A stretch of 64,000 nucleotides of DNA from positions 39,476,635 through 39,540,634 of the forward strand of contig NC_057718.1 in assembly GCF_004010195.1 (NCBI RefSeq). Direction: 5' to 3'. This document shows, piece by piece, positions 2,698-64,000 of this stretch. This stretch comes from Chiloscyllium plagiosum (Eukaryota). The number at the start of each line of letters is the position of its first letter. Positions within the stretch are counted from its first letter, which is position 1. The notes under the pieces were generated by a model. It worked only from the letters and a program-made list of their open reading frames with translations, did no database searches and had not been told where the DNA came from. Position numbers and translations under genes: made by a program.

Positions 2698-2787
2698 CAG
2701 AAGAAGGGCTTTTGCCCGAAACGTCGATTCTCCTGTTCCCTGGATGCTGCCTGACCTGCTGCGCTTTTCCAGCAACACATTTTCAAC
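2698..2787 (+). mobile_element. Penelope-like terminal repeat fragment (truncated hammerhead motif)
   Basis: GAAGAAGGGCTTTTGCCCGAAACGTCGATTCTCCTG...GATGCTGCCTGACCTGCTG; same family as the copies at 13.7, 16.2, 45.5 and 63.8 kb. Confidence 0.75.
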
Positions 2788-3099: not shown

Positions 3100-4290
3100 G
3101 TTGCTGAAGATGTTCCTTGTATGCTGTTGTAGATAATCAGCAGAGAGCAACCCCCATTGAGAATTCAGTGTACATTTGTCTCAGATCACAAGTGAAAAAG
3201 GCTGAACAGCTTTCTGTCAGTTTGGGAAGTAATTAAACATCTCTGAAAATGACCTGAAGGTACATGACAGTGGAAAAGTGATGAATATGGAAAACGGTGC
3301 TGGTGTCAGAACACAACTCTGTTTAATTCCTCTGTGAATCACAATTGGCTCCAATATTGCCCCATCACAGCTATCTTTATTCATCATGTTGTCATGGAAA
3401 GAGGACAACATATCGATCATTTCCAGTGGTCAGTCGTTGTTAAACTGACGGTCTCTGCCTTCAAAGTTAAATGCCTCGATGAGACCAATAGAGACAATGT
3501 ATCACAATCTTCTTTGTTGACAGCATTTCTCATGTAGCTGCTGGACTGAGAAAGTCATGTTGAGTATCCAGGTCTAAAACTATGCTAGGAATTTGTTTAC
3601 ATATGGGCAGAAGTGGGTACTGCACATGCTGGTGATTAGAGTCAACATTAGAGTAGTGCTGGAAAAGCACAGCAGGACAGGAAGCATCCGAGGAGCAGGA
3701 AAATTGACATTTTGGGGAAAAGTCATAACAGACAGGCCTTCCATGGCACTTGAAACTTTCTTGGTGACAGCGCTCTCCTTAGTGTGCAATTTAAGGTAGT
3801 GTTCCACCCATCTCTCCAACTGCTTACTACAGTTGGTGATGGTCTCTTCTGCCTTTGTTTACACATGTTCAGTCAGGATATTTAAACTGACAAGGACAAC
3901 ATAGGCAAATATGATTCCCACCATGTTTAGCAGGGAAATACTTCAACAGTTGTTGCAATTACTGTGGTTGTCCTTGTTCTTGCAAAAGCTCACAATCTTT
4001 ACATCTTGTGTATCAAGGGATATTGCCTTCTGCCAGATTTCCATTTTCCCGTGCTTGACAAATTCAGGTGATATAGTTTCAGCATCTGCAGCTTTGTCCA
4101 CATCAAGCAAATCAGTAGTTTTTCCCTCATTTATTGTGTGTTGGATACCCAGCTTTTCCATGACAGACAGGCGCACTATGGCACTTGAAACTTTCTCGGT
4201 GACAGCTTTCTCCTTAGTGTGTAACTCAAGGTAGTGTTCCACCCATCTCTCCAACTGCTTACTACAGTTGGTGATGATCTGTTGCTTATG
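3100..4290 (-). mobile_element. Decayed RTE-clade LINE RT fragments, with a PLE fragment at ~3635-3720
   Basis: Minus-strand peptides QLERWVEHYLEL, DKAADAETISPEFVKHG and GIKQSCVLTPAPFSI are typical of RTE ORFs. Confidence 0.7.
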
Positions 4291-13449: not shown

Positions 13450-13853
13450 CTGCACACCTGCACCTCCACCCACATCATCTACTGCGTCCGCTGCAGCCGC
13501 AGACTGGGATCACGGATAGTTAGGTCAGGATCACGGTGAAGCAGACTGGGATCACATTTAATTAGGTCAGGATCACAGTGAACCAGACTGGGATCACGGA
13601 TAGTTAGTCTACTCCGACCTATCACCCTCACCTTGACCTCTTTCCACCTATCACATTTCCAACGCCCCTCCTCCAAGTCCCTCCTCCCTACCTTTTATCT
13701 TCTCCTGCTGAACACTCTCTGCTCATTCCTGAAGAAGGGCCTGTGCTTGAAACGTTGAATCTCCTGTTCCCTGGATGCTGCCTGACCTGCTGTGCTGTTC
13801 CAGCAATAAAGTTTCAACTTTGATCTCCAGCATCTGCAGACCTCACTTTGTCC
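13450..13853 (+). mobile_element. Younger Penelope-like fragment: GIY-YIG scrap, 42-bp minisatellite and terminal repeat with hammerhead motif
   Basis: TCTSTHIIYCVRCSR at ~13456-13500; ATTC-CTGAAGA-AGGGC-CTGT-GCTT-GAAAC-GTT-GAAT at 13725-13760; tail CTCCAGCATCTGCAGACCTCACTTT. Confidence 0.8.
13500..13607. repeat. Minisatellite, 42-bp unit x ~2.6 (GGATCAC every ~21 nt)
   Basis: CAGACTGGGATCAC...TTAGGTCAGGATCAC.GTGAA units start at 13500, 13542 and 13584. Confidence 0.9.
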
Positions 13854-13954
13854 TGTAAGTCATGCATCTACACAAGGGAATACCATTTTCCATTGAGGTT
13901 TAATCCTTGAGAGTTTTTTTTCAGGCAATTGGTACAATTTAGTTATAATTGACA

Positions 13955-27100: not shown

Positions 27101-30100
27101 GGAACTGTCTCCTTTCGTTTTAAAAAAAAAAGGACAGGCTGCTACTCCTCAGAAAATCTCACCTGTTACGCTTGGAATGCTACAAATCTAATCCAAGTGC
27201 AAAAGAAATGTATTTCATATTGCATTGCTTATGATGAGCGAATGCTATACTTGTTTAATATCTGCAAAATCCATTTTGATGTTAGCATTAACAAAGTCAT
27301 AAGTTCTTTTCAAATAATCTTATAAAAAAGGAAGCAATCCAGTTGAATTAAATGGGATACCTGAACTGATTAAAAACCAAAAGCACTGCGGATGCTATAA
27401 ATCGGAAACGAAAATCAAAGTTGCTAGAAAAACACAGTAGGTCTGTCAGCATCTGAAGAGCAATTAGAGTTAATGTTTTTGGTCCAGTGACCCAAAACTG
27501 AAGGGTTAAGTCTGACCTCTCTCCTCAAATGCTGCTAAACCTACTGAGCTTTTCCAGCAACTTTGGTTTTTGCGCCTAAACTGATGTTTGCTCTTTATCT
27601 GCATTATTCTGCTTATTGACAGGGAAGGGAATTAAGGATTTTTATGACTATTAAACATTGAGTGCCACCATTTGTAGAGATGCTTCGTGGGCACTCTATT
27701 GATGTTCGTAGATTTGGTCAATTTTGCATTTTCTATTTGAAATTGCAATTCATGTGCATCAAATGAATTAAGCAACATGGATCTATGTATTTAAATCTGA
27801 AAGAAAACCTGACTTCTGTTCCTTAATGATAAGGTCCTGGGGGGTGTTACTGAACAAAGAGACCTTGGAGTGCAGATCATAGCTCCTTGAAAGTGGAGTT
27901 GCAGGTAGATAGGATAGTGAAGAAGGTGTTTGGTATGCTTTCCTTTATTGGTCAGAGCATTGAGTCTATGAGTTGGAAGGTCATTTTGCAGCTGTACAGG
28001 ACATTGGTTAGGCCACTTTTGGAATATTGTGTCACCCTCCAATGAGAAGGATGTTGTGAAACTTGGAAGGGTTCAGAAAAGATTTTCAAGCAAGTCGCCA
28101 GGGTTGGGCTATAGAGAGAGGCTGAAAAGGCTGGGGATGTTTTCCCTGGAATGTGTGACCTCCTAGAGGTTTGTAAAATCATGGGGGGCATGGATAAGGT
28201 AAATAGACAAGGTATTTTCCCTGGGTGGGGAGGCCAGAGCTAGAGGGCATAGGTTTAGGGTGAGAGGGTGGTGTGTGTATGGGATGAGCTGCCAGAGGAA
28301 GTGGTGGATGCTGGGACAATTAACAACATTTAAAATGCATCTGGATGGGTATGTGAATAGGAAGGATTTAGCTAGATATGGGCCAAGTGCTGGCAAATGG
28401 GACTGGATTAATTTAGGATATCTGGTCGGAATGTACAAGTTGGACTGAGAGGTCTATTTCCGTGCTGTACATCTCTATGACTAAAATTCAACCAATAAAC
28501 ATCAGGTCTATTAGCATCTGAAAAAAAATGAGAGTGCGCTAACTTTCTGAGCCAACCTTCTTCAGAAGTAGCAATATTGAGAATTGATATTTTCTCTCCT
28601 CAGATACTGTTGGACGTACTGTACTTTTAATGCATTTGTTTTATTTCAAAATGTTCTGTTACATTTTATAGAAGGGGTAATAATTATTGATTACTTCTTT
28701 AAGATGTTCTATTGATTGATTGATGTGAGGGATCGATGGACCATTTTTTAAAAATTCCGCATCCATTGCTAGTATCAAGTGTGCCAAGATCTGGTATAAC
28801 ACCAGATAGGTGCAAACTAAAACTTCCTTTCCTCAACAAAGCACTGTAACTTTAGCAACTACTATTTTCATTTCCCCGACAAGAGGATTTCAACTATAGC
28901 AATCTTCTTTTTAGAAAATAATTTATACTTGCTATTATTTATACTTCCAGCTAATTAGTAATAAATCTTAGTTGAGGCTGTATTTGAAAGCAAACCATAA
29001 TCCTTAGTCAGACTATTGAATTTGTTGTAAGTCGTGACTTTTAGCATTGTACAGATGTTAGCAGAGCACCAATGCTTTTACAAAATGTTGCTGTAATATA
29101 TTCTACAGAAAATCATTTGGAAAATAATTGCATACCTAATACAGATTTGGCCATAGCAAATTTAAAGGAGATGTAAAATAACCATTTTGATTAAAAGTAA
29201 ACATGATACATTTAGCAAGCAGATTACACCAATTTGGAAAGCACTGATCACTTCGTATTTTTAAAGTATGTCCCCTCTACATTGCAAATTATAAATCACT
29301 AAAACACATGATGTTTTCTGTTCAACTTGACACTACTTTATAAATTTCATTAGGCCCTCTTCGCTTGAAATTTATATTGTCCTCTCGCACATTGAGAGTG
29401 TTGAAGACAGATTTTTATTTCATCAGTAGTTTGTAACAACAATAGACTTCTTTCCTCTGTTAGTTTTTAATATTGCAGACTGGCATGAATGTGACTGGAA
29501 TTGTTGTCTTGCTGCACTGTGGATGGAGGTTAGTTTTCCTTTTAAGAGTAACTGATGCTGATGTTAGCATGATGATTTTCAACAAAAGTCTGTATTGTGT
29601 AATACTTGTTAAAAATTCTGTATTTTTGTTTGTTTTTATAGTGGATGAGTATATTGCAGTTGCAAAGGAGAAGCATGGCTATAATGTGGAACAGGTTTGT
29701 GAAAAAACTATTCCAATAGTTATCTTAGAAGGCAGATTGCACACTTCAAATTTAGAGTCCAAAACTTTGGTTTCTTGTTGTTTTAAGGTTTTTTATAATG
29801 TTTAACCACATTAAACAGAAAGGATTTATTTCATTGAGACATTTAAATCACTTAAATAAACCATGTATTTTTAGTTGTCAGATCGTATTTGGCTGCCTGA
29901 ATTCCATCAGTGAAACTATTTTCTCATCAGATATACATTTTATACTAAGAATTTAATGTTGGTGCAAAGTGTTTACATTTTATGCCAGCAATAAACACGT
30001 TATAAATCCTAAATTAGCGCCTGATCTGACTTTATTGCAAAGTAGGCAGTCTTGTTCTATTATGAGAGATTATCATTATGAGGTTGGACATAAATTATGT

Positions 30101-33100
30101 CATTTGCACTGAGTTGTATCTGTACCACATGTTTATTGTATAAATGTAATTAAAGAATAAATTCATTATGTGATGTCATACCATCTGACTCAAAAACTCC
30201 AGCTTCCATTCTGATTTGAGTAATTAGGCAAATAAACCAAACAGACTGTTATGTTGATTAAAATTTCTCTAGAACCTTTTGAGTTACGGAGAAAACTCTT
30301 AAAATTGTCCATTCTACCTGCTTCCTCATGACCCTTTTTGTAATTTTGGGTGAGGATGAGTTTGGGATCAGCTGCTTCATGCACTGTTGAATAGACAATA
30401 TGGTGACAATATTTTGAGGAGTTACTTATGACAACTAGTAAGTGGAGAGATCTTAACAAATTTAATAGCAGGATCACATTTGAAATATTTACTTCCATTT
30501 GCTAGATAACTACCAATCAAACCAAAAGACTGACCAGCTGATGATTGGGAAGACCTAGTGGGATGAGCTGTCGCAGTACCAGTTGCAGGGAGATGGTTTT
30601 GCAGCAGATTGGCTTAAGTTCTGATGACCCACAGCAATACTGGAAAAGCAGTTAACTGCTAGGTCTGGCAGATCTTCACTCCTTTAGTGACTAGATTTCC
30701 CAAATCCTGGAAACCTGGCTTTCAACCAGATGTAATTAAATACATGTGCTACTAAACTGTGAGGTGCAGACCTTCATTAGTATGTTTTTTAATTGCTATC
30801 CAGCCTCTTGAGGGTAAGCTACTTGCCTGTGTCCTGTCCTACCCCAGTTAAACTGGAAGTTGGCAAATTCATTGCAGATTGAAGTTGAGTTTCAGACTTT
30901 TACATTGTTTAACCCTCTTCCAGGGGGAAAAAAAGGGTTGTAGGCAGGTGGTTAAAATCCCTTTTACTATATTATTGCAGGAAAGTTGGCATTTCAGGTG
31001 AGGGAAAAAAAGCAAAGGGGGAATGGAGGAGAAAGTCATCAGCTGTGCAAAGACAAATTCTGATATTCAAGGGACAGAATTGTGAGAAAAACCATGAACT
31101 TCCTGAGAACCCTCTAATGTGTCCTTATAGATTGAATGGTCAGTGCCTCACTTTTGTCCAGCGAAATGTGGGAAAATCCAGTAGCTCTTTGGGAGAAAAA
31201 GTTTGCCCTTAAGTTGTTACTTGCTTTGACAAATATTGTCTAAATTTGTGGTTTTCTAATACTTGTTACTTAATGTGTACCTCAAATAGGCTTTGGGGAT
31301 GTTATTCTGGCACAAACACAACATAGAGAAGTCATTGGCCGACTTGCCAAACTTCACCCCTTTTCCAGATGAATGGACAGTAGAAGATAAGGTTCTGTTT
31401 GAACAGGCCTTCAGTTTCCATGGAAAGAGCTTTCACAGAATTCAGCAAATGGTAATTACCTTTTGTAGTTTATTTCCTCAATTTTACTGTAACCTCCTTT
31501 GACACTGAATTCAGGTTGTATTCTGCTGAAAAAGATGAATGGTGAATATATTAATATAGAAGCAAAATACTACAGACTCTGGAAATGAGAAATATCAAAA
31601 AAATTGCTGTAAATTTTCAGGTTTAGTACCAATTGTTGAGAGAAAGAAATGTAAGATTGCTGGCTTTTCATCACTTTAGATCAAGCCAAATTCTTGCTTT
31701 TAATAAGATTAATTCTTTTGATTTTGAGAAATCTTTAAATAGGTTTTAATTCATTATTCTATCCCACCTGGCAGAAACCATGGGGGTGAGAAGTTAGGGG
31801 ACAGTTGCTTAGCAGTAATGTTACTGGACTAGTATATCCAGAGACCCAGGCCAATGCTCTGGGTAATAAACCTGATACCCACTCTAATGTTACAGGAACA
31901 CATTCAAATACCAATACAGTATCTGATATTTTAATTTGGCTAATCTGGAATTAAAATTTAGTATCAAGGGTAATCTTGTAAATTGAATTGTCATTCACAA
32001 ATGGTTCACTATTATTCTTTAGTGAACTAAATCTGCTGACCTTACCTGGTCTGGCGTACATGTGACTTCAATGCGGTTGACCCATAAATACATTTGAAAT
32101 GGTCTCAATTGTATCAGACCTCAAAAGAAATAAAACTAGATGGATCACTGGCATTGACCTAAGCATGGGAAATGACAACAGCACCACCCTATCTAGTTGA
32201 GTCTGAAAAATCCCCTCTAGGAGCTTGATCCAAACTTGGGTGAGCTAGTCAAACAGTAGCCTGACATTGGCCATAAAGTATATGATTTGTGGAGTATGAC
32301 AATGTTCTAAACACAATCATCATCATTCCTGGATATGTCCTGTCCCACCAACAGGGCAGACCCACCATAGTTGGGCAGCACAGAGGTATTCAGTTGGGAG
32401 AGAGTTTACTTGGAAGTCCTAAACATTGACTCCAGACTCCTTGAAATCACATAGCAACACGTCAAACGTGGGCAAGGAAACTACCTGTTGGTTGTCAATT
32501 ATCACCTTCCCTCAGCAGATGAATCAGTATTCTTCCATGTTGAACATCAATTGGAAGAAGCAGTGAATGTACCCTGAGTGGGGGTTTTAACATCTATCAC
32601 TAAGAGTGACCGTATCGTACCATTACTAGCTGACCTTGCTGATCCATGAAGGGCATAGCTACTGGACTGTGTTTGCAGTGGTTGTTGAGGTAAAACCTAT
32701 TACACCTTGTCCTCGTCAGTCCACTTGTTGTGAATGCATCCGTTCATAACAGTATAGGTAAGATTAACATCACACAATCTTTGTGAGGAGCAAGTCACAA
32801 CTTCACATGAGAGAGCCTCCACTGTGTTGTGTGACAAAACCACAGTACTATTTAGGATAAACTCAAACTGTGTTCATTAGGTGCTGTGATTCATCAGCAG
32901 CAGCACAATTATATCCAATCACAGTCTACAATCTTATTAACCTGACATATCCCTCATTCTACCATTATGCTAACAAGCAACCCTAGTACAATGAGAATTG
33001 CAAGAAAGCCTGCCATGAGCAACACCAGACATCTATGCACCCTGTCACTTTTACTGCAGTGTGCAGAGCTCTGAGGTCTGTACATAACAGCAGCTTCTGC

Positions 33101-36100
33101 TACTGGTTGTCAAGGTGCTTTCATGTTAATTGGCATGCACAGAACCTCCGAACAGCATGGGCACCAAGCCTAGAAGCTGCATTGCCAGAAGTTACATTTT
33201 TATATATAAAAATAAGGTGCCAAACCGTTGAAACTACATTGCAACGCTACATGTTGTGAAATGGTGTAAGACAGAGCTGAATAGTGCCATAAGCCAGAGG
33301 ATCAGTTAAAGCTCTTCAAGGCTTCCCCATATCTGGTTAGTATTGATAGCGGATAATTTAACAAATGACTGCAGGTAGAGGCTTCACTGATATCTCCATC
33401 TTCAATACTGGTGGAGCCTACAACATTAGTACAAATGATGAGACTGAAGCACTTGCAAACACCTTCAGCAAGAATGACAAGTGGATGACCCATCTTGACC
33501 TCCTCTTGAGATTCCTGGAATTTTAGATTGGTCTTCATCCAATTTGACTGTGATAATCTAGCCAAACTATTCCAGAATGGTTACAGTACTGACAGCTGTT
33601 TGATGGTGTGGAAATTTGCCCATGCCATGTCCTGTCACAGAAAGAAAGATAAATCCAATCCAACCAATTATCAACCCTCAAGCCCAATCTTGATCATCAA
33701 CGTAGTGTCAAAGGTGTTACTGACAGTGCTATCTATATCAAGCAGCACTTACACGCCAATAACTTGATCACAGAAGTTCCATTTGGATTTGCAGGGCTAT
33801 TCAGCTCCTAACCTCATTACAGCCTTAGTCCCAGCATGACCTGAGAGGTGAAGTGAGAATAATTTGCTTGACATCAAGACAGTACTTGACTGAATGTGGC
33901 ATCAAAAGTGAACCTGCAAATCTCTCCACTTGTTGGAATCATGCTAGCACAAAGGAAGACTTCTGATTGTTGGAGGCCAATCATATCAGCCCCAAGATAT
34001 TACTGCATGGTTTCTTCAAGACCATATCCTTGGTCCAACCATCTTTATCTTCTTCGTCAATAAACTTGCATCTATCCTAGGATCACAAATGAGGGTGTTT
34101 ACTGATATTTGGACAGTTTTCAGTACATTCACCATTCCTTAGATATTTCAGAAGTCTATGAGCCATATGCCAAAAGACCTGGATAGCATTCATCTTCAGC
34201 TGATAGTATGATTCTGTATGCATGTGTAAAACAAATGACACGCCAAATGAAAACAATTACTGATAAAAGTTTTACTTTTTCTTTTGGCTTTTATTTCAAT
34301 ACAAACTAGAATCAATTTTAAGAAAAACATTAGCAGGCAAATCATACTTAGTACTAACAGTAAATTGCATTTGCAATAACATAGAACAAAGATCAGTAAA
34401 GCACAGGAACAGGCCCTTCAGCCCACCAAATCTGTGCTGACTGTGATGCCATCCTAAATTAATCTTATTCTGCCTGCACATGGTCCATATACTTTCCCTG
34501 CCTGTTCATGTGTCTAAGTGCCTGTTAAACATTGCAATGGACTCTGCTTTTACAACCTTCCCTGAGATCGTGTTCTAGGCAACTACTACTCTTGGTGTTT
34601 TCTTAAATAAAAAAGGTTCTTTGCAAATCTCCTTTAAATTTTGCCCCTGTCACCTAAAACCTATGCAACCTAATTTGATATTTCCACCCTATTTCCAGGG
34701 AAAAAGGCTGAAAATCCACTCTATCCATGCTTGTCATAATTTTATATACTTCTATAAGATCACTTCTCAGCCTCATATTGTCTTTGCTCGAACATCAAAG
34801 TTTGAACAACCTTTCCTTATAGCTATTACATTTCAAACCTGGGCAACATCTTGATGAACAATTTTTTGCACCATCTCCAAAGCCTCCACTTCCAATAGTG
34901 TGGCAGCTAAAGTTTTATATAGCTGCAACATGACTCGCTAACTTTTATACTCAGTGCTCCAATCAATGTAGGCAAGCATGCCGTATGTCTTCTTTACCAC
35001 TTTATCCACTTGTGTTGCTACTTTCAGGGAGCAATGCGCTTGTACCCCAAGATTCCTCTGTATAGCAGTACTTCTAAGAGTCTTGCCATTTTTGTATACT
35101 TTCCTCTTTGACCTCCCAAAATGCGAGTAAACCCTATCCAATTTTTCTACCACTGATATAAGACTCACCAGCCTATAATTTCCTGGATTATCCCTGTTCC
35201 CTTAAACAAAGGAACAGCATTGGCTTTCTCCAGTCTTCTGGAACCTCACTTGTAGCTAAAAAGGAAAGAAAGATCTCAGATCTATGTCAATACCCCAGTA
35301 ATCTCCTCCTTTGCCGCCTTCAGTATCCTGTGGTAGATCCCCACAGGCCCTGGAGTCTTGTCAACCTTAATGTTTTTCAAGACACCCATCACCACCTCTT
35401 TCTTAATGTTGACATGCCCAACATACCCCTCCCTAACCTTCCCGTCATCCATATCCTTCCAGGTGAATACAAATGTGAAATATTCATTAAGGACATTACC
35501 TATTTGCTTTGGTTCCGTGAACAAATTCCCTCCTTTATTGTTGATTGGACCCAACTTTTCCCTCACTACCCTCTTGTTCCTAAAATACTTACAATATGCC
35601 TTGGGATTCTACTTAATCCTGTGTGCTAATGCCATTTCATGACCCCTTTTAGCCTTCCTAATTTCTTGTTTAAGTTTCTTTTTGGCTTCATTTGTACTCA
35701 AGGGTCTTATTTTGATTTTATTTGATTTTATTTTGGGCGGCACGGTGGCACAGTGGTTAGCACTGCTGCCTCACAGCGCCGGAGACCCGGGATCAATTCC
35801 CGCCTCAGGCGACTGACTGTGTGGAGTTTGCATGTTCTCCCCGTGTCTGCGTGGGTTTCCTCCCACAATCCAAAAGATGTGCAGGTCAGGTGAATTGGCC
35901 ATGCTAAATTGCCCGTAGTGTTAGGTAAGGGGTAAATGTAGGGGTATGGGTGGGTTGCGCTTTGGCGGGTCGGTGTGGACTTGTTGGGCTGAAGGGCCTG
36001 TTTCCACTCTGTAATGTAATCTAATCTAAAAAAAACCTCACATGTGCGTCCTGTTGATTTTCGACTAAGCTTTCAATATCTTGTTATCCAAGGTCCCCAA

Positions 36101-39100
36101 ATCTTATCGTAGAGTCATAGAGATGTACAGCACAGAAACAGACCCATTGGTCCAAATCATCCATGCTGACCAGATATCCCAACCCAATCTAGTCCCACCT
36201 GCCAGCACTTGGCCATATCCCTCCAAACCCTTCCTATTTATATACCCATCCAGATGCCTTTTAGATATTGCAATTGTACTAGCTTCCACCCCTCTGGCAG
36301 CTCATTCCATACATGTACTACCCTCTGTGTGAAAACGCTGCCCCTTAGGTCTCTTTTTTTATATCTTTCCCCACTTACCCTAAACCTATGCCCTCTAGTT
36401 CTGGACTCCCCCACCCCAGGGAAAAGACCTTGTCTATTTATCCTATCCATGCCCCTCATGATTTATAAACCTTTATAAGGTCACCCTATAACTCAAATCC
36501 TCCAACCCTGGCAACAGCCTTGTACGTCTTTTCTGAACCCTTTCAAATTTCACAACATTCTTCCGTTAGGAAGGAGACCAGAATTGCACGCAATATTCCA
36601 ACAATGGCTTTGCTTTCCCAAAATGCAGCACCTCACATTTATCTAAATTAAACTCCATCTGCCACTTTTCAGCCCATTGGCCCATCTGATTATCATCTTT
36701 ATCTTTCATCCTCACAGGAACATGCTAGTCCTGAACTCTGATCAACTTGCCTTTAAAAGACTCCCACATGTCAGATGTGGATTGACCCTCAAACAGCCAC
36801 CCCAATCTGATTTCTCCAGTTCCTGCCTAACACTGGTCCAGACTATCTCAAAACTTAAAGAATTATGATCACTGTTCCCAAAATGCTCCCCCACTGAAAC
36901 TTGGATCACCTGGCTAGACTCATTCTGCAATTTAGGGTCTAGTATGGCCCCTTCCCTAGTTGAACTCCACATATTTCAAGAAGCCTCCCAGATGCACCTA
37001 ACAAATTCTGCCCCATCTAAGCCCCTGGCACTTCTGGAGTCCCAGTCAATACTAGGGATGAGCAAATCACCCACTACAACAACTTTGCTTTCACATCTTT
37101 CCATGATCTGCTTGTATGTCTATTCCTGTATCTTGCACTGGCCATTGGGAAGCTGATCTTAACCCCATTATAGTGATTGCACTTTTCTTACTCCCCAAGG
37201 TCTATTAATATGGCCTTGCTGGATGAGCCCTCCAAAATGTCCTCTTTTAGTGCAGGTGTGGCATTTTCCTTAATTAGTCCTGCAGCTCCTGAACCCTTTT
37301 TACATCACTCTATATCTCACCTGAAACATCAAAACCCTGGAGTATTGAGCTGCATGATTGTTCCATGTACTAATCCAGACTCTAAAATCATCTGCTTTGC
37401 CTCTTATATTTCTTACATGAAAAAATAAACATCAGACCACCAGTCCCTCCATGTTCGTTAATCTGGCTCTGACACTTCTTCCTTATTAGACTGACTTACT
37501 TTTTCCTCAATCATTCCACATGCTGACTTACTGCTGTTCCCCCAAACTCCTGCCACACTAATTTAAACCCTTGCCGGTTGTAATAGCAGACCTCCCTGCA
37601 AAGATATCAATGCCCCTCCAGTTTAGGTTCAACCTGTCCTCTTTGTACAGATCCTTCCTGCTTTGGAGGAAATTCCAATATATCTGAAGTCCTCCTTCCT
37701 ACACACCAGATCTTTAACCATGCATTCAACTGTGTTACCTTCCTATTTCTGGCCTCACTAACACATGGCACAGGGACCAACCTAGAGATCCTGCTTTTCA
37801 ACTTCTTACTTAACGCCTTAATTTTCCTTTGCGAGATCTCATCTCTCTTAATGCTTACCTGTTATTACCAATATGATCTCAATCTCTGCTTACCCCCCTT
37901 TCAGAATATCTTGTGTCTGCTCTGAAGCATCATTGACCCTGGCCCCAGGGAAGCAGTGCACCATCCTGGAGCCTCACTTGCATCCGCAGAAGTGTCTATC
38001 TGTGCCCTGACTATAGAGTCCCCTAACTTACACATGGATCCTTCTTGCTGTACAACAGGGCCAATTGTGGTACCACTGATCTTGCTGTTGCTTTCCCTTG
38101 AGAGGCCATATCTCCACAATAGTGTTCAAAACAATGTGTGTTTGAAAGGGGAATAACTACAGGGTACTCCTGCACTGCATGACCATACTAAGTAGTATTC
38201 CTCATGGTCTCCCAACACTTCTGTCTGTGTAGCTCTTACTTGGGATCAAATATGAAGGTAGGCTAGCCAGTAATATTAGAAATGATAGTAAAGGTTTCTT
38301 TCAATACATAAGAAACAAATGACAGGCAAAAGTAGACATTGGGCCACTTCAAACTGATGCTGGAAGCCTAGTGATGGAAGATAAGGAAATAGCTGAGAAC
38401 TTCAAGACATGAGTAATATCCCAACAATTAAAGGGAGTCAGGGGGCTGAGTTGAGTATGGTTGCCATTATAAAAGAGAAAGTGCTAGATAAGCTAAAAGG
38501 TCTTAAAATTGATAAATCTCCTGGTTTCGATGGGCGAAGTGAGCTACTGGTATGGATTGAGGATTGGCTGTCTGACAGAAGGCAGAGAGTTGGGATAAAA
38601 TGTTCTTTTTCGGAATGGCAGCCGATGACAGGCGGTGTCCCGCAGGGTTCAGTGTTGGGGCCGCAGCTGTTCGGTATATATTAATGATCTGGATGAAGGG
38701 ACTGGGGGCATTCTAGCGAAGTTTGCCGATGATACGAAGTTAGGTGGACAGGCAGGTAGTACTGAGGAAGTGGGGAGGCTGCAGAAGGATTTAGACAGTT
38801 TGGGAGAGTGGTCCAGGAAATAGCTGATGGAATTCAATGTGAGCAAATGAGAGGTCTTGCACTTTGGAAAAAAAATACAAGCATGGACTACTTTCTAAAC
38901 GGTGAGAAAATTCATAAAGCCAAAGTACAAAGGGATCTGGTAGTGCTAGTCGAGGATTCTCTAAAGGTAAACATGCAGGTTGAGTCCGTGATTAAGAAAG
39001 CGAATGCAATGTTGTCATTTACCTCAAGAGGGTTGTGCTACTGAGACTTTATAAAGCTCTGGTTAGGCCCCATTTAGAATACTGTTTCCAGTTTTGGTCC

Positions 39101-42100
39101 CCACACCTCAGGAAGGACATACTGGCACTGAAACGTGTCCAGCGGAGATTCACACGGATGATCCCTGGAATGGTAGGTCTAACATACGAGGAACGGCTGA
39201 TGATCCTGGTATTGTATTCATTGAAGTTTAGAAGATTAAGGGGAGATCTAATAGAAACTTACAAGATAATACATGGCTTGGAAAGGGTGGACACTAGGAA
39301 ATTGTTTCTGTTAAGCGAGAAAACTAGAACCCATGGACACAATTAGAGGGGGTAAATTCAGAACAGAAATGCGGACACATTTCTTCAGCCAGAGAGTGGT
39401 GGGCCTGTGGAATTCATTGCCGCAGAGTGCAGTGAAGGCCAGGACGCTAAATGTCTTCAAGGCAGAGATTGATAAATTCTTGATGTCACAAGGAATTAAG
39501 GGCTACGGGGAGAATGTGGGTAAGTGGAGTTGAAATGCCCATCATCCATGATTGAATGGCGGAGTGGACTTGATGGGCCAAATGGCCTCACTTCCGCTCC
39601 ACTGTCTTATGGTGTAATGGTGATATGACCAGCTTGCTAAATGTGCATTGACAATGTTCTCTGCCTCATGGATGCTCCATAGTGAGTCCATTCGCAGCTC
39701 CAGTGCAGCAGATGAGGAGCTGCAGCTGAACACCGTTCCTGCATATGTGGTCACCATGAACAGTGGACGTGCCTCTGATTTCCCACAGGAAAAACATTCT
39801 GAGGCAGAGTTCTCCTGCTATTGTGAGCCTTAGCAACTATTGACAATAAGCCAATTACACAATCTTACCTACTACTCACCAAACTCAGGTTTCTCAGTTT
39901 CTATTTCTATTCTTAACAAGTTACACCCATAAAATTACAAACTTTATACTCTGTTTCCCTCCCGAGTACAACACACTCCATCTTTAGACTTGGTTCTCAC
40001 AGCTTTTCCAAGTTAAGCATTCTGCTGTTTGGCATCAGTTTCAGCCATTAAATTCTTCCCAGTTCAGATTTTCCTCAGCCATAATTCCTTCCCTTTGTGA
40101 ACTTTGTCAATTCTTCGTGGTATGGAGCTTTTACCCAACCAGCTCTCTGTCTCTTTCACAATGGCAGTCTTCTTTCCAGAATTTCTCAATCCTCTGCTCC
40201 GCTTGGTTATCGAACCACCTTCACCATTACACAGTATGGCTAATTTTTGGACATTTATTCACTTTGAAGTGAAAGAATCAGCTGCATCAATCCTGAATAT
40301 GTCTTCCGATTGTTTGGAACTCCAGCTTGCTGACCACTACTTCTTTTCAAATCTCCATGCTCCTCTTCATCTATCTGCCACGAGGTCATTGTATTTTAAC
40401 TTGCTTTCTATTAGTTGGGGATTCCTGGAAGCTATACCATTACTGCTTTTGAGTCAAAAGCTATCACACTGATAAGTTGCAAGTAACATTTATGCCAGGC
40501 AAAAGCCAGGCAATGACCATGTTATTTCTGAAAATATCTAACCATTTCTGCTTGACATTCTGCAGCATTGTTTTTACCTTAGTCTTGTATAGATTTGGTT
40601 GTCACTAACGAGGCTTGCATTTATTGTCCACTCCGAGTCGCATCTGAACTGATTTTTGGGGTGCAGTTAAGCACAAACCACATTGATACTGGTCTGGAGA
40701 CACATATAGACGAGTGTTAAGGACAACAGATTTCCTTTCCTAAAGGACATTGGTAGATAAAGTGGGTTTATACAACAATCAGCTAATTATATGGTCACCT
40801 CTAGTGAGCCTTCAATTCCAGATTTTTAAAAATGTAATTCAAATTTCACTATTTGCAATAATTGAATTCAAGCCCTTTTATTAGAATAGGGCTCTAGATT
40901 ACTAGTCTAGTTACATAAGCCACCATCTCCCCATATCATCAATTCCCCTACCATCAACATTCCAAGGGTTGTTATTGACAGTAAACTTAATGGGACCAGC
41001 CATATGAATTCTGTGGCTAAAAGGGAACCTCAGCGGCTTGGAGTTCTGCAGTGAATAAGTGCTCCCTGAATTCCCAAAAGATGTGTGCTATCTTTAGGAC
41101 ACAGGACAGAATTGTAATGGAATATTCAACACTTGCTCAATGAGTACTGCTTCAAGAACGCTTGAAGCATTTTTGATTGGCACCTTATCCACCAGATTAA
41201 ATATTTACTTTCACCCTCACTGATAGACAGTGGCAGCAGTGTGTACCATATGCAAGATGCACTGCAGAAAACTGTCAAGTTACCTGCAGCGGTCGGATCC
41301 AAACTTAAAAATTCAATCATCCCTGCTTATCCTGAATGTGCCCTCTATCCCATAATTCTAGCCTACTGTAGGTAAAGTAAACTGCAATTTCTGCTACTGA
41401 TGCATTTGGAGAACAATTAGGTGATGTAAAACATAAGAATTAAGAATTGGGGGCCCATTGATTGGGGGGACGTGATGGCCTAGTGGTATTATTGCTCGAC
41501 TATTAATTCAGAAACTCAGCTAATGCTCTGGGCCCTGGGTTCAAACTCTGCTATAGCAGATGGTGGAATTTGCATTGAATAAAAAAAATCTGGAATGAAC
41601 AATCTACCAATGAACATGAAACTATTGTTGATTGTCAGAAATACCCATCTGGTTTACTAAGGTCCTTCAGAGAAGAGAATATTTCATCCTCATTTGGTCT
41701 TGCCTACTTGTGACTCGATCCACAGCAATGTGGTTGATTCTTAATTACCACTGAAATGGCCTAGCGAGCCATGCAGTTATACCAATTGCTTAGAAGTCTC
41801 GAAGAAATGAAACCGGACAGATCACCTGGCATCAATTGTAGGCATCAGAAAAGACAATAGGAGAAACAGCCCTGTTGACCCTGAAAAGTCTTTATTGGAA
41901 GCTTGTGCAAACATTTGGAGAGCTGTCTCACAGACCAGTCGAGCAACAGCCTGACATAGTCATACCCATGAAATCATACCTTCGAGACAATGTCCCAGAT
42001 GCTACCATCACCATCTCTAGATATGTCCTATCCTACTAGCAGGACAGAACCAGCAGAGGTCGCGACACAGTGGTATACAGTTGGAAAGGAGTCCTCAAAG

Positions 42101-45100
42101 TTGACTCCGGACCTCATGAAGTCTCGTGGCTTCAGATGAAACATATGCAAGGAGCCCTCCTGCTGATTACCATGTACTGTCCTCCCTCAGTTGATAATAT
42201 CAGTATTCCTCCATGTTGAACAACATTGGGAGGAAACATTGAGGATGTCAAGGACACAAAATGTACTTTGGGTGGGGATTTCAATGTCCATCACCAAGAG
42301 TGGCTCAGCAGCAGTACTACTGGTCGAGTTGGTCAGCAAAACTAGGTCTGTGGCAGTTAGTGAGGGAACCAGCAAAAGGGAAAAACATACTTGATCTCAT
42401 GCTTACCGATATGCCAGCTGCAGGTGTCTGTCCATGACAGTATTGGTAAGAGTGACCACAACCACAATCCTTGTGGAGATGAAGTCCCACCTTCACATTG
42501 CGAATGAGCTCCATCGTGTTGTGTGAGACAGACTTTGAACAGATTTAGCAACTCAAGGCTGATCATCCATGAGGTGCTCTGGGCCATCAACTGCAGTAGA
42601 ATTGTGCGAGAGGACAGTCTGTAACCTCAAGATGTGACAAATCCCCCACTCAATCATTGCCATCAAGCTAGTGGGTCAACCCTGGCTCAGTGGAGAGTGC
42701 AGGAGGGTATGCCAGGAGCAGCTCTGGGCATATCTGAAGAGGAGATATCAACTTGGTGAAGCTACCCAACAGGATACTTACACGTCAAACAACATAAATA
42801 GCAAGTGATGAGCTAAGCAATCCCACAACCAACAGATCAGATCTGAACTCTGCGGTCCTGCACACCAGTTGTGAATGGTGATGGACAGTTAAACAACTCA
42901 CTGGAGGTGGAGACTCCAGAAATATACCCACCCTTGATGGAAAAGTCCAGCATATCAGTGGAAAAGATAAAGCTGAAGCTTTCACAGCAAACTTCAGCCA
43001 GAAGTGCCAAGTGGGTGATGCATCTCTGCCTCCTCCATGGTCTCCCAGCATTACAGATACCAGTCTTCAGCCAATTTGATTCACTCCACATGACCTCAAG
43101 AACGGTTGGAGACGCTGGATATTGCAAAATCTATGGATCCTAACAACATTCCAGCAATAGTGCTGAAGACGTGCTCCAGAACTTGCCACTGATCTAACCA
43201 AAATCTTCCAATACAGTTTCAACACTGGCATCTACCTAATAATGTGGAAAATTGCCCAGGTATGTCCTATACATAAAAAGCAGGACAAATCTAACCCAAC
43301 CATTTACTGCTGCTTCAGACTACTCTCAATTATCAGTAAAATGTTTGAAGGTGTCGTCAACAGTGCTATCAAGCAACACCTGCTTAGTTTGGGCTCTGCC
43401 AGGACCACTCAGCTCCTGACCTCATATAACCATGTTGAACCATGGACGAAAAAGCCAAATTCCAGAGGGAAGGTGAGAGTAACAGCCCTTGACATCAAGG
43501 CTGCATTCAATCAAGTGTGGCATCGATCTCTAGCAAAACTGGAATCAATGGATAATGAGGCAAACTCTTTGCTGGTTGGAGTCAAAATTGCAGATAGGAA
43601 GATGGTTGTGGTTGTTGGAGGTCAGTCATCTCAGCTCCAGGACATCTCTGCAGGGGTTCTTCAGGTAATGTTGTAGGCCCAACTATTCTCAGCTGCTTCA
43701 TCAATGACATACCCTCCGTCATAAGGTCAGAATAGGAATATTAGTTGATGATTACACAACGTTCAACATCATTCACAACTCCTCAGATACCGAAGCAGTC
43801 TATGTTCACGTGCAACAAGATCTGGACAGTATCCAGGCTTGGGCTGAAAGTGGCAAGTACATTTGTGCCTCACAAATGCAAGGCTATGGCCATCACCAGT
43901 AAGAGACAATTGAGCCACCGCCCCTTGACATTTAATGATACTTGCCGTCACTGATTACCAAACTGTAAACCTCCTGGGGGGTTATCATTGCCCAGAAACT
44001 CAATTGGACTCGTTATGTAAACACAGTGGCTACAAGAACTGGTCAGAGGCTACAAATACTGCAGCGAGTAACTCATCACCTGATTCCTCAAAGCTTATCC
44101 ATCATCTACAGTGTACAATTCAGGAGTGTGATGGAATACTCCCCACTTGCCTGGATGAGTGCAGCCTCAACAACACTCAAGAAGCTTGACATCATCCAGG
44201 GTAAAGCAGCCCACTTGATTGGTGCTACATTCTCAAGCATCCACTCTCTCACCACCAACATTCAGTAGTAACAGTATGTACTATCTACAGGAAGTACTGC
44301 AAAGATTTATCAAAGATCCTCAGACAGCACCTTTCAAACCCATGACCACTTTCATCTAGAAGGCCAAGAACAGCAGATCTGAACACTACCACTTCAAGAT
44401 CCCCTCCAAGCCACTCACCATTCTGACTTGGAAATATATCGCTGTTCCTTCACTGTCGCTGAGTCAGAATCCTGGAATTCTCTCCCCAGTGGCATTGTGG
44501 GTCAACCCACATCATGCAGACAGCAGCGGTTCAAGAAGGCAGCTCATCGTCACCACCACCACGGCAACTAGGGTTGGGCAATAAATGTTGGCCAGCCAGT
44601 GATGCCCCATCCCACAAAGGAATAAAAAAAGGATCACGCATTTAGCTGTTGCAGCTTGCTGTACCTTTCAGTAAGATCGTGGCTGATCTTCCTGAACTCC
44701 ACCCTCTCCTGCATTATCTGCATATCCCTTGATTTCCTTTGTATTCAAAAGCTATCACAGTCACTGTCTTGGAAGTATACAACACTGAGCATCTACAGTT
44801 CATGATTATCCTGGCAAGAGAAACATCATCCAGTATCTATAATGTGAAATTTGAGAAACTTCTATATTTCAAGAAAATCAATTTTCATTTGTTTAAACTC
44901 TTTGGAAGATAAGCCTAGTCAACTCAATTTCTCTTCAAAGCAGTCCTTCAGCCCAGGAATCAGACTACTGAACCTGTACTGCACTCCCACTTCAGACTAA
45001 TTGAATCCTTTTGGTTAAGGAGACCAAACTGTCCATAGTATTTTGGGAGTGATCTCACTAAGGCTGTATATAATTTCTCTAAGACTTAATTAACCTTACC

Positions 45101-48100
45101 TTTTAATCACTTTGTAATATAGTCAAATGCGCTATTTGATTTTTAAAAATTTATTTGCAATACCTCAAATTGTAACTTGTGATTTATGTGCCGAGATACC
45201 CTGGTCCCTCTGGAAAAACAGTTTCTCAATCCCTCACCTTTTAAATTAATTTTGCCAACCAAACGGATAATTCCACACTTCTCCATATTGTATGCCATAT
45301 ATCACATTTCTGCCCATTTACTTAACCTAACTCTATCCCATTGTAGCCTCTTTACAACCTCATCACAGCTTACTTTCATGCCTAACTTTGCATCAGCAGC
45401 AAACTTGGATACATTATCTTCAGATGCCTCATCTAAACCATTGATGTTGATTGGGCTTTAGACAGTCAATTAAAGCCTAGGTAAAAACAATGACTGTAGA
45501 TGCTGGAAACCAGATTCTGGATCAGTGGTGCTGGAAGAGCACAGCAATTCAGGCAGCATCCGAGGACAGGCAAAATCGACGTTTCAGGCAAAAGCCCTTC
45601 ATCAGGAATAAAGGCAGAGAGCCTGAAGCGTGGTGGCGGAGCAGACCCGAGGGGCCGAATGGCCTACTCATGTTCCCACTTCTAATGGTCTTTTGACCTG
45701 TTTTCCTTGACCTGAGAATAGGCAGTGAGGATAAGCTATTACTTTGATGAGTACTGTGTAGATTTAGCAGAACTACCTGAAAATCTTGGCAAGTCACTTT
45801 GTATTTGACCATAACATCCAAAAGAACTGTGAATGCTGAAAATCAGAAACAAAACCAGAGACCGCTGGTAAAGCTCAGCTGCATCGATGGAGAGAAATCA
45901 GGGTCCTGAAATATTAAATCTGATTTCTCTCCACAGATGCTACCAGACCTGCTGAGCTTTTTCTCTGCCTTTATTCCTGATGAAGGGCTTTTGCCCGAAA
46001 TGTCGATTTTGCCTGTCCTCGGATGCTGCCTGAATTGCTGTGCTCTTCCAGCACCACTGATCCAGAATCAATTAAAGCCTACCAATCTGAAAATGACCTA
46101 TTATTCCTACTTTATGTTCTTATTCACAAGCCAATTCTAGTACCATATATTATCCACAATGCTGTGAGTTATAAGTAAGTGTCTTAATGTTCTATGGCAC
46201 CTTATTGAAGGTATTTTTAAAAAGCAGGTTGCACAACAGCAGTTCATTCTTCCTTATCTATATTAACAGTAACACTTAAAAAAGAAACTTAGTTGTCAAA
46301 CGCTATTTCCCTTTCATAAATTCATGTTGACTATTATAGTTCTCGAAGTCTCTTGATCTTATGTACCTAGTAAAAGGTTCTAATATTTCCCATACTGATT
46401 TCATCCTGACTGGTCTATAGATCCCTTTTTTACTCTCTACTTTCTTGAATAATGGAGTAATATTTTGTGAATCTCTGAATTGTTGAAAGTAAAGATTGCA
46501 TTGATTCTATGAGAGACTTGAATCTCCTGGATTAATGTACTGAACATCAAATGAGTTCTAAGTACGATCCCATAAAACTTTCTATGTGGGTGTATGTAGA
46601 TCTTTGATTCTTTGACATAAGCAAATTATTCAAATAATCGTTTTTCCCTGTAGGCAAAGCTGTCCTAAGTTTCCTTGTCTTCTGTTTCTTTCCACAGGAT
46701 AGTGGTGGTTAATTAGTGGTGTGGCACTAAAATTCATACCTCTGAGTAGTATTTACCTCTTTTCCTTTTTCATTCATTTTTTTCATGTTCCCCATTAACC
46801 TTTCTCAATTGACCTAGTTTTTATCAATTTCTAGCTCGCAAGTTGAAACTCAGTTGAAAAATATTGCTGAGAATATTTAAATTACCTTATACCACTGGAA
46901 ATTTAAGCAAACTAATCATTGGTATGCTACGTTGATGTCTAGGCTTGGATTTTTGTGGTGAGATAACTTAATATTTGAAAACAATATTCGCAGATGAAAA
47001 ACATAATAATTTTCATAGGTATCTAATATTTGCTGAATGACCAGTTGAGATGGCCATCAGTCCTGAAACTGCTACCATCAAGGATACAGTGATATAAATC
47101 ACTGTTTTAAACTAAATTATTGTGAAAGCCATTTTAAAAGTTAAACAAAGCATCCTTTTTTCGTTAAAGATTTTTGAGGAATTATTAATTTAGAATATGA
47201 CGTTTTCTCTCTCTCTTTTCTGTCTGCCTCTCTCCTCACCCTCTCTTCTCTTCTCTCTCTCACTCCCCCCCTTCTCTCTCCGTCCTCACCCTCCCAACTC
47301 TACATTCGTTGCCTCCAGTTCCCTATCCTGTTTCGGTGATTGTTTTTATGCAACCATCAATATTATGCAGGGTTTTGATTGGTGGTTTCTTATATCATTG
47401 CCTCAGCTACCAGATAAGTCAATTGCAAGTCTAGTGAAGTACTATTACTCCTGGAAGAAAACTCGATCCCGAACAAGTTTGATGGATCGGCAAGCTCGAA
47501 AATTAGCAAGTCGAAACAATCAAGATGAAAGGTGAGGGAAGTCAGATGGTTATTTCCTTGGCATTCATGTCTACTAGTAGCAGAAACAATTATACTGTGC
47601 ACACTAAATTATGTTTCACACCAAGATCGAGCAAGACTATTGTAGTCCATTCGGTCTTGGATCCATCAAATTCTGCTTTGCAATTGGTACTCTGAGTAAA
47701 TTTTTCATCAGGTATTTATACATCTCTCTTGATTTTACTCATGGAATCAGTCACTGCTGCCTACTTTTCATCCTCTTCCTCCTAGGTTCTAGTCTTACAC
47801 CCTCTATTAAAATATATGTTCAATATTTTAATTAATTTGTCTGTATTCTTTAGGAACCTGAATATATTTCAATAAAATGATACTTAAATTTTAAAACATG
47901 TTTTATAGCATTAGGCCTTGAGCATTTAGCTCAAGGTTTTGGTGTGGTCATTGTTGACTGGAAAAGAGGTTTGCATAAGCCCTTGACCTCCGAAATGTAC
48001 CTCTTCAGACAATATTTCTAGGTAGAGTATCCCTACAGTGGCTTTTAAAAGAGTAGGCTGGTTAATAGCTAAACATATTACATGATATAACCATAATAAG

Positions 48101-61666: not shown

Positions 61667-63780
61667 GTAAATAATATGGTGCTTATAATTTCACAACCAA
61701 TGTAATTCTCTTGTGTTGTTTTGTGTACAGTTTTAGATCTGTAGTTTTATACGTTATATTAAAGTATTCCTCTGTTCATTGACTACGTCTAAAACTAGAT
61801 GGATCTAGAGATCTGTGGCAAAAGTGGAATTCTGTATCAAGAAATTACTCTATCACGTGGCATAAATAATGACATGAATGCATCCGCATTGAATGCAGTG
61901 GCATTCCAAATGTGCAATGACCTTTCTTGATCTTCTGTACATGTGCTGGTGCAATGCACATCTGTGTTCATACCTGAGGTACATCTGCGTTTGCAGCTAG
62001 ACAAATTTATGGGGCAGTTCTCATTTTATTATTTTGGGGAATAAAGTGTGTGCAATTTAGACCTGGGGAAACCAGAACAAATGTTTCAAAAATTAGACAA
62101 AAAGTAAATAGTTTCTGTGTCCTTTACAGATGGGAAAAATCAATAGCCCAATAGCTATTTCAATTGAATATGGATTCTCTCTTTCTGGGGTATCTTTTTA
62201 CACACAGTTAATAATTGGACAAGCACTGTGTGGAAATCAGTGTGTATCAGGCTTGAAGTGGAAGATTTTATTTTGCTACAAATGTAGGTTCTAGTGTGCC
62301 TGAGATTATAGAGGGGACGTGTTTTTCAAACCTTTGAGAAAGGGACTTGGAAATTTTACAGAAATTTAGAAAAATGTTTTTATAGGGAGTATGTAAAATA
62401 AACGTCTTGTTGGAAACCAATATAATATGTTGAAAGAGTAAACCTAGTCTGTCTTAAGTCATTGTTTTGTAGTGCTAGTAGTAGTACACATTACCAAACT
62501 TAAAATAGATTACTGAAAACATTTGACCAAATAACAAAGTAAAAAGATTAGGAATTACATCATTTACCTGACAAATTGCTTAGAAATACTGGTAAGTATT
62601 ATCAAGCAACTTGACTTTTAGATTAAATTCTTTTTTGCAATAAAATATTCATCTGCAGAATTTGCAAATTGACAGATGACCAGTGGGAGAATTATAAGAA
62701 AGGTCAAAGATGTTTACAGTATTAAGGTGTAAGTCAACCCTGCTGCTGTAAGGTGTAAATCTTGACCTGATTGTGATGCCAATAGTACTCCACTTTCTAA
62801 GAGCAGGCATTTGAAAAAAAATTTATAAGATCGTGATAGCAAATGATGAGACAGCCAACATTTTCATCTCGGACCATTTATCCATAAAGCTTCTAAAATT
62901 CCCTCTTTGTAACATTGAGTTAGATCTTTAAGAAATCTATTCTGGGGTATTGATCACTATTTAATGTTAAGACGTACTTAACCAATATTAGTTCTGGATT
63001 TGCATTACAGTAGTAATCGGCAACTCCTTATCCATAAATAATTTTTGCAAATATACCATTATCCATACTGTTTATAATCTTGTACATTTCTACAGTAGAC
63101 CTCCCAGGCATGTCATGGCAGGATCAAAAAATCTTAGTCTAAGAAACACCTGCAAGTCTGGGGAACAGGTTTAAGGCTTTTGTTCTGCATAAGTCCATTG
63201 GATGAATGTTTCCCTTGTGTTTCATTGACCAGAACTTGGCAAGGTCACCAGGCACGTTTTAGACTGACCAGAGTATAGTATATTTTTATCATGACTCATA
63301 CTGATTTAGCATACTGATTGCTATACCTATGACATTTTGAGTTCTAAATCTATTAACACTTCCAAATCTTTTTTCAATTAAAAGACTGTTCATGGCAGTC
63401 ATATGTTGTCCAGTTTCCTTTGTGTTTACATTTGTCTCTTTCAGACTTCATCTGCCATTTCCTTACCTACTTTTAAATTTCGTCCATTTAATTCTGTAAT
63501 TGTTGATCTGCTTCATAAGATTTTACTGGCTTCCCTGTCATGTCTAATTTTAATTTGCATTGAGTTTCTGAGTTCAAGTAATTAATATAAATTAGAGATT
63601 GTGTTTGTCTCATCATCGATTCCTGAGGCACCATACTCAATGCTCTCCCCACATCAACCAAAGATCACATTTTTACTAACTACCTCATAATTTGTAACCT
63701 CAAGCTAAGAATTTAATTATGTTAACATCTATCCTGAATTAGTTTTGAGCTTGATACTTAGCTTAATTTTGTCAGATACC

Positions 63781-63984
63781 GAAAATGTGTTGCTGGAAAA
63801 GCGCAGCAGGTCAGGCAGCATCCAAGGAGCAGGAGAATCGACGTTTTTGGGCATGAGCCCTTCTTTCAGGCTCATGCCCGAAACGTCGCTTCTCCTGCTC
63901 CTTGGATGCTGCCTGATCTGCTGCGCTTTTCCAGCAACACATTTTCAGCTCTGATCTCCAGCATCTGCAGTCTTCACTTTCTTC
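63781..63984 (+). mobile_element. Penelope-derived fold-back insertion in RCOR3 intron 9
   Basis: Inverted arms of about 78 bp; perfect 14-bp TSD TTTTGTCAGATACC at 63767-63780 and 63985-63998. Confidence 0.88.
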
Positions 63985-64000
63985 TTTTGTCAGATACCAT

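What the first reader, a model, noticed from the sequence alone, without database searches (positions are those of the whole stretch)
45466..46081. Ribozyme-bearing inverted arms enclosing captured DNA, inserted as one unit (14-bp TSD)
Seen: one ~590-bp block lies between identical TCAATTAAAGCCTA copies. Its ends are ~108-bp inverted Penelope-type repeats, each with a hammerhead motif, and they differ at only about 2 positions. The interior (~45630-45960) is unrelated to the arms: a CR1 3' tail (GGGCCGAATGGCCTACTC), about 120 bp of apparently unique DNA, and an older PLE hairpin remnant. Established: PLEs often insert with a partial inverted terminal repeat. Inference: a PLE reverse transcriptase or the repair step template-switched into another locus or RNA and moved that host DNA here, giving a transposon-like cassette with cargo. 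That would be a route for sequence transduction in sharks.
Basis: partly seen in the sequence, partly recalled or inferred. Interest (0 to 1): 0.72.

Follow-up and report, generated by a model that had tools for sequence, protein, structure and literature searches.

The report
Host DNA inside Penelope fold-back insertion
A young two-armed insertion of a very common jumping gene landed in a gene intron carrying a 328-base piece of DNA from elsewhere in the genome between its arms; it is real and well supported, but it is another example of a capture already described for these elements.

Summary
A 602-bp insert lies in an RCOR3-like intron: repeat (12-14 bp), left element end 45480-45633, 328-bp filler 45634-45961, right arm 45962-46069, repeat. 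The arms match at 106 of 108 bases; both differences are CpG transitions. Only the left end has the 33-bp 'tail' typical of Penelope-like elements (PLEs). In a related organism one contig joins the flanks across exactly 602 bp (empty site), and another carries the filler's first 218 bp at about 95% identity, so the filler came from another locus. No donor lies in the window. Best reading: both cut target strands primed PLE cDNAs and a foreign fragment was sealed between them; a later repair patch at the hairpin centre is the main rival. Nothing suggests the cassette moves as a unit or that its hammerhead motifs work. No listed contig spans the inner junctions. Host DNA between PLE terminal repeats with a TSD is already published for a rotifer, and this scan earlier noted similar fillers elsewhere in this genome (unchecked notes). 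New member of a known kind.

The parts
45466..45479 (.). Left copy of target-site duplication (12-14 bp)
   Evidence: organism B contig skips exactly 602 bp here
45480..45512 (-). 33-bp one-sided PLE 'tail' (outer reverse-transcription start, inferred)
   Evidence: absent from the right arm; 130 family contigs in run X5 have unrelated flanks before 45480; 30-40-bp tail described in PMC8557442 and PMC11167929
45513..45620 (-). Left arm, PLE terminal-repeat piece with minimal hammerhead-like motif (about 45578-45605, minus strand; CpG change in the first pair of helix II)
45621..45633 (-). 13 more bases of the PLE, present on the left only
   Evidence: family loose ends begin after 45633 in 4 of 4 runs
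45634..45692 (+). Filler part 1: truncated LINE (CR1-type, label recalled) 3' tail
   Evidence: 78-81% like window copies at 39557 and 25478; high depth in all runs
45693..45811 (.). Filler part 2: low-copy host DNA
   Evidence: no other copy in the window; on organism B contig 22
45812..45961 (.). Filler part 3: older PLE-like fold-back remnant, cut off inside its second arm
   Evidence: 77-84% like four other window loci; inner hairpin 45881-45901/45920-45940; family continues past 45961
45962..46069 (+). Right arm, PLE terminal-repeat piece without tail, with minimal hammerhead-like motif (45977-46004; CpG change in the helix III palindrome)
46068..46081 (.). Right copy of target-site duplication (first two bases shared with the arm end)
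31452..47406 (+). Host intron of an RCOR3-like gene; the insert is about 1.3 kb upstream of the acceptor
   Evidence: flanking exon peptides and GT/AG ends; best PDB match REST corepressor 3, E 6e-19

Best explanation
One insertion event of a highly abundant Penelope-like element, with foreign filler at the join of its two halves. SHOWN: the block replaced an empty site, duplicating 12-14 bp; both element pieces point their 3' ends outward at the target; one has the tail, one not; the filler is a fragment of another locus, cut mid-repeat at both ends. INFERRED: the element's endonuclease made a staggered cut; each 3' end primed reverse transcription on the element RNA, the left at the outer start site (tail included, 154 nt made) and the right at the inner start site (108 nt made); both cDNAs stopped early; before the two ends were joined, one was extended on, or ligated to, a 328-nt piece of a distant locus (RNA or DNA), by a template jump of the RT or by end-joining repair, with 0-3 nt of microhomology. 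The product is a dead, one-off copy: a small duplication of host DNA.
For: Empty site: run X5 contig 17 lies on 44904-45463 (record 344-903) and 46066-46423 (record 1-343), contiguous in the record, skipping 602 bp, the repeat spacing. Donor: X5 contig 22 lies on 45634-45851 with 10 other letters and 8 gap letters, starting exactly at the filler's first base with 12 letters unlaid before it, and spans all three filler components in order. Its substitution rate (10 of 210) equals that of the flanks in the same run (48 of 1199; Fisher p 0.57), whereas paralogous window copies are only 77-84% alike. Outer junctions: in X1 and X2 (two samples of organism A) flank contigs run into the left tail (to 45503) and out of the right arm (from 46045). 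Youth: arms differ only by two CpG transitions. Anatomy: a purified PLE protein cleaves and extends both target strands and starts at two RNA sites that bound the tail (PMC11167929). Plain versions of the same design sit in the window: 63767-63998 (arms 75 of 78, 9-nt centre, 14-bp repeat, one-sided tail) and 16143-16329 (59 of 64, 2-nt centre, 8-bp repeat). For L1, extra templates at the inner junction of inverted insertions are reported (PMC11702581).
Against: No listed contig spans either arm-filler junction in organism A (31 pieces shown of 223,336). The empty site and the donor each rest on one contig of one run; I saw coordinates and counts, not their letters. The last 110 bp of the filler (45852-45961) are not on the donor contig; only an organism A contig (45825-45937, 1 difference) covers part of them. 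No donor was located in organism A, because no genome is held. The data cannot order insertion and capture in time. No RT or endonuclease gene could be tied to the arms.
Confidence: 0.62

Rival explanations
1. Two steps at one place: a plain PLE fold-back (arm, short centre, arm, TSD) inserted first; its near-perfect palindrome later broke at the centre and was patched with a templated or ligated 328-bp piece of another locus. The host repair system, not the element, did the capturing.
For: Fold-backs with centres of 0-60 nt are the usual form (window controls; many short contigs join left to right arm, e.g. 45609 to 45973 in 31-38 contigs per run). Near-blunt junctions fit end joining equally well. 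An earlier unchecked note (e1-7789019) reads another locus this way.
Against: The arms are hardly older than the filler (two CpG changes only), leaving a short time for a second event; both arms are intact up to the junctions; similar fillers at exactly the inversion point are noted several times in this genome (unchecked notes) and arise during L1 insertion in cells.
Confidence: 0.24
2. The arm-filler-arm structure (or arm-filler) was formed at another locus, transcribed, and copied here as a unit: transduction in trans through the terminal repeats, as proposed for the rotifer NRPS gene.
For: Published precedent (PMC3846280). X5 contig 22 has twice the depth of the flank contigs (58.4 against 28.6-30.2), so the filler may exist in more than one copy there. 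An earlier unchecked note (e1-7858329) reports a multi-copy PLE-mobilised host fragment in this genome.
Against: The filler's low-copy part has depth 1.8-3.6 times the flank in 4 of 4 runs (bin 45754-45814), against more than 100,000 times for the arms (summed depth, not a copy number). The filler lies between inverted, not direct, repeats.
Confidence: 0.08
3. The interior is mis-assembled or differs between individuals (arms real, filler wrong or partly deleted).
For: No contig of X1 or X2 is laid on 45693-45753, and none listed crosses the inner junctions.
Against: The tool states that a hole proves nothing; the same hole occurs in organism C; the filler's ends coincide to the base with where two different repeat families leave the window's sequence; the arms differ at two CpG sites, which a read-through artefact would not give.
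Confidence: 0.04
4. Two independent PLE insertions in opposite orientation around resident DNA, or a local inversion.
For: The family is dense: PLE-like pieces at 7 other places in the window, and one unrelated inverted pair exists at 2709/3722.
Against: The orthologous site in organism B lacks arms and interior together; one shared 12-14-bp repeat bounds the whole block.
Confidence: 0.02

Closest known systems
Host DNA captured between PLE pseudo-LTRs in the rotifer Adineta vaga (Arkhipova et al. 2013, PMC3846280; passages and section 9 read)
   Same: Unrelated sequence between PLE terminal repeats, whole unit bounded by a TSD, empty site shown; the paper also reports 'a few other cases' of non-coding sequence captured between solo pLTRs.
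   Different: There the NRPS gene lies between two direct pLTRs with a third inverted; here a short non-coding filler lies between two inverted, heavily truncated ends, in a vertebrate. The orientation of the paper's non-coding cases is not given in the text I read.
Standard PLE insertion with an inverted 5'-truncated copy and a one-sided 30-40-bp tail (Craig et al. 2021, PMC8557442, passages; Frangieh et al. 2024, PMC11167929, parts 1-2 of 4 read)
   Same: Inverted arms, tail at one end only (33 bp), hammerhead motif in the terminal repeat, AT-rich target.
   Different: The inversion point holds 328 bp of foreign DNA; no ORF is present.
Non-canonical L1 insertions: extra templates at the inner junction of inverted insertions, and templated insertions (PMC11702581 and bioRxiv 10.1101/2024.08.27.596794; passages read)
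   Same: Two target ends extended separately, then joined with a third sequence between them.
   Different: L1 twin priming copies two different parts of one RNA; here both ends copy the same terminal segment. The L1 templated insertions in tumours are typically under 250 bp and from within 15 bp of the site; here 328 bp with no donor within 45 kb upstream or 18 kb downstream.
Minimal hammerhead motifs of metazoan PLEs (Cervera and de la Pena 2014, PMC4209133; passages read)
   Same: Core boxes, an extra base before helix II, palindromic minimal helix III; pairs of motifs 100-700 bp apart on opposite strands are reported there too.
   Different: Each motif here carries a CpG change at a conserved position; single motifs of this type did not cleave in vitro in that paper.

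Membership tests
Penelope-like element insertion | Inverted, 5'-truncated second copy forming terminal inverted repeats | tested here: met
   106 of 108 bases, 3' ends outward
Penelope-like element insertion | 30-40-bp tail at one end only | tested here: met
   33 bp, 45480-45512; definition
Penelope-like element insertion | Target-site duplication with an empty site | tested here: met
   12-14 bp; 602 bp skipped on one contig of organism B
Penelope-like element insertion | Minimal hammerhead motif in the terminal repeat | tested here: met
   by inspection against the features; no Rfam hammerhead match
Penelope-like element insertion | Parent element encodes a PLE-type RT with GIY-YIG endonuclease | tested here: inconclusive
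   no ORF in the insert; a 29-residue decayed peptide upstream of a 77% similar window copy gave no relevant Pfam match; no genome held. Clade not determined
Mobile cargo-carrying cassette (composite or Pack-type element) | The arm-cargo-arm unit occurs in many copies | tested here: not met
   low-copy part of the filler is at 1.8-3.6 times flank depth in 4 of 4 runs; two or three copies are not excluded
Mobile cargo-carrying cassette (composite or Pack-type element) | Symmetric terminal inverted repeats reaching both ends | tested here: not met
   left end has 33 unpaired bases outside the arm
pLTR-mediated mobilisation in trans (rotifer NRPS type) | Cargo lies between direct pLTRs | tested here: not met
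   only inverted arms; no direct copy
pLTR-mediated mobilisation in trans (rotifer NRPS type) | Unrelated cargo between pLTRs, TSD, empty site | tested here: met
Active hammerhead ribozyme | Self-cleavage | not testable with these tools
   predicted fold of the host-sense strand pairs 27 of 28 motif bases with the other arm, which would block it

The most novel reading that the evidence does not exclude
In this lineage PLE insertions are finished by joining two separately primed cDNA ends, and that join regularly takes up DNA or RNA from distant loci. With a family this abundant, that would be a steady, genome-wide source of small host duplications in a vertebrate, and the fillers would be a fossil record of the still undescribed last step of PLE integration.
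Probability: 0.45. Interest if true: 0.55.

Novelty: new member of a known kind. Interest (0 to 1): 0.33.

Why it matters
As a single locus it matters little: a dead insert with non-coding filler deep in an intron. Its value is as a clean case, with empty site and separate donor seen in a relative, for how PLE insertions are completed, a step that PMC11167929 says is not yet validated. If a census shows many such fillers from distant loci, PLEs would be a route for moving host sequence in these genomes. A side effect worth noting: the host pre-mRNA gains a 108-bp double-stranded stem 1.3 kb from a splice acceptor (inference).

Tried and rejected
No whole genome is held, so the genome-wide donor search and arm-cargo-arm census could not be run. 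Donor search in the window: none for the low-copy part; none among this scan's noted windows (0 look-alikes). Metagenome scans: 0 matches for a 30-nt arm pattern; 5 matches for a 21-nt pattern, all only 21-25 nt long in contigs of 60-74% G+C, rejected as chance. Coverage hole: no depth at 45693-45753 in X1, X2 and X7; unexplained, not used as evidence either way. The flank-to-flank joint does not appear in the joints table, which shows 15 of 887 rows; it is read from the pieces table. Homologous recombination between the old remnant and the young arm: rejected, the right junction is not in register with their similarity. The inverted pair at 2709-2774/3657-3722 points inward and has no flanking repeat of 7 bp or more: not a second case. 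Rfam microRNA matches on the inner hairpin are far under their gathering scores. Literature: searches for PLE capture in sharks gave nothing relevant among the titles listed (9 papers, listing only, 0 papers); the library lacks most subscription papers, and supplements of the cited papers were not read and may hold closer cases. PMC8969392 (passages) added nothing.

Full report
Observation. The region was read directly. A 14-mer occurs twice, 602 bp apart (45466-45479, 46068-46081), and 108-nt inverted arms lie at 45513-45620 and 45962-46069. They are the longest of 55 inverted pairs within 3 kb in the window. The arms differ at two positions, both CpG transitions, one in each arm; this points to identical arms at origin and a young age (inference). 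Two bases of the right repeat are also the arm's last bases, so the duplication is 12-14 bp.

Setting. The insert lies in a 16-kb intron (31452-47406) of a plus-strand gene whose next exon matches REST corepressor 3 best. No whole genome is held.

Boundaries. Contigs of four public runs (X1 and X2, two samples of organism A; X5, organism B; X7, organism C; 4 of the 23 runs listed) were laid on 44900-46700. In all four, contigs of the young family leave the window's sequence after 45633, and contigs of an older family leave after 45961. So the left element is 45480-45633, the filler 45634-45961 (328 bp), the right arm 45962-46069. The left element has 33 outer bases that the right lacks, the size of the one-sided PLE tail (PMC8557442). 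Summed depth on the arms is over 100,000 times that of the flanks; this is no copy number but shows a very abundant family.

Empty site. One X5 contig (1201 nt, depth 30.2) lies on 44904-45463 and 46066-46423 with consecutive record positions, so it skips 602 bases, the repeat spacing.

Donor. A second X5 contig (222 nt, depth 58.4) lies on 45634-45851 from its 13th letter to its end, with 10 other letters and 8 gap letters. It begins at the filler's first base and covers LINE tail, low-copy DNA and the start of the old remnant in order. Its divergence matches the flank divergence in that run (4.8% against 4.0%, p 0.57), while paralogous copies in the window are 77-84% alike. Because the site is empty in that organism, this sequence lies elsewhere. 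No donor for the low-copy part exists in the 64-kb window.

Against. No listed piece crosses an arm-filler junction in organism A (31 of 223,336 pieces shown). Positions 45693-45753 have no depth in X1, X2 and X7; the tool warns that a hole proves nothing, and I cannot explain it. Empty site and donor each rest on one contig of one run. The filler's last 110 bp are not on the donor contig.

Junctions. The left join repeats three bases (element end and filler start are the same triplet); two LINE-tail copies in the window have other bases before that triplet, so the join is blunt or a 3-base microhomology with a stutter. The right join has 0-2 shared bases. It is not in register with the weak likeness between old remnant and young arm. 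Such joins fit an RT template jump or end joining better than long-homology invasion (inference).

Mechanism. A purified lizard PLE protein cleaves and extends both target strands and starts at two RNA sites that bound the tail (PMC11167929). That predicts what is seen: one end with tail, one without, both 3' ends outward, a TSD. Two well-preserved window copies show the plain form with 2- and 9-nt centres and 8- and 14-bp repeats; of the 5 loci with arms scoring 32 or more (12 loci examined), only this one has a long centre. I infer that a fragment of a distant locus was sealed between the two cDNA ends (0.62). The main rival is a later repair patch at the palindrome centre (0.24); the present data cannot order the two events. 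That the block is derived and its filler foreign I put at about 0.9.

Ribozymes. Both arms hold a minimal hammerhead-like motif of the type described for metazoan PLEs (PMC4209133). They lie on opposite strands, each has a CpG change at a conserved position, Rfam does not score them, and in the host-sense strand 27 of 28 motif bases are predicted to pair with the other arm. Single motifs of this type did not cleave in vitro, and cleavage was not needed for insertion by the lizard protein in vitro. They are best seen as passengers.

Comparison. Arkhipova et al. 2013 report a host gene, and a few non-coding sequences, captured between PLE terminal repeats with TSDs, with an empty site shown for the gene. 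L1 studies report extra templates at inner junctions and templated insertions. The insert meets four anatomical features of PLE insertions; the link to a PLE RT gene was inconclusive. It fails the tests for a multi-copy cassette and for cargo between direct repeats. Earlier notes of this scan describe similar fillers at other loci of this genome, mostly with donors about 1 kb away; they are unchecked and count only as leads.

Verdict. Real, well supported, a new member of a known kind. What is a little unusual is the distant donor and the clean comparative evidence. Interest 0.33.

Noticed in passing
window 63767-63998: Plain PLE fold-back: arms 75 of 78 alike, 9-nt centre, 14-bp flanking repeat, tail on the right only; used as a control.
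   Followed up: partly
window 16143-16329: Plain fold-back: arms 59 of 64 alike, 2-nt centre, 8-bp flanking repeat, one-sided tail.
   Followed up: partly
window 27364-27585: Older fold-back, arms 41 of 50 alike, 60-nt centre, 7-bp flanking repeat; same older family as the remnant in the filler.
   Followed up: partly
window 13450-13860: Longer PLE-like copy with a decayed Cys-containing peptide upstream that recalls the start of a PLE endonuclease (recalled; Pfam gave no support) and a short tandem duplication near 13500-13600.
   Followed up: partly
window 45738-45743: Four substitutions against organism B within six bases; five of these bases read as the reverse complement of the organism B letters, possibly a micro-inversion.
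   Followed up: no
window 45693-45753: No contig depth in two samples of organism A and in organism C, although organism B covers it; unexplained.
   Followed up: partly
window 3743-3830 and 4178-4265: Long direct repeat about 435 bp apart inside a LINE-like fragment.
   Followed up: no
window 2709-2774 and 3657-3722: Two older PLE pieces facing inward, 882 nt apart, no shared flanking repeat; probably independent insertions.
   Followed up: partly
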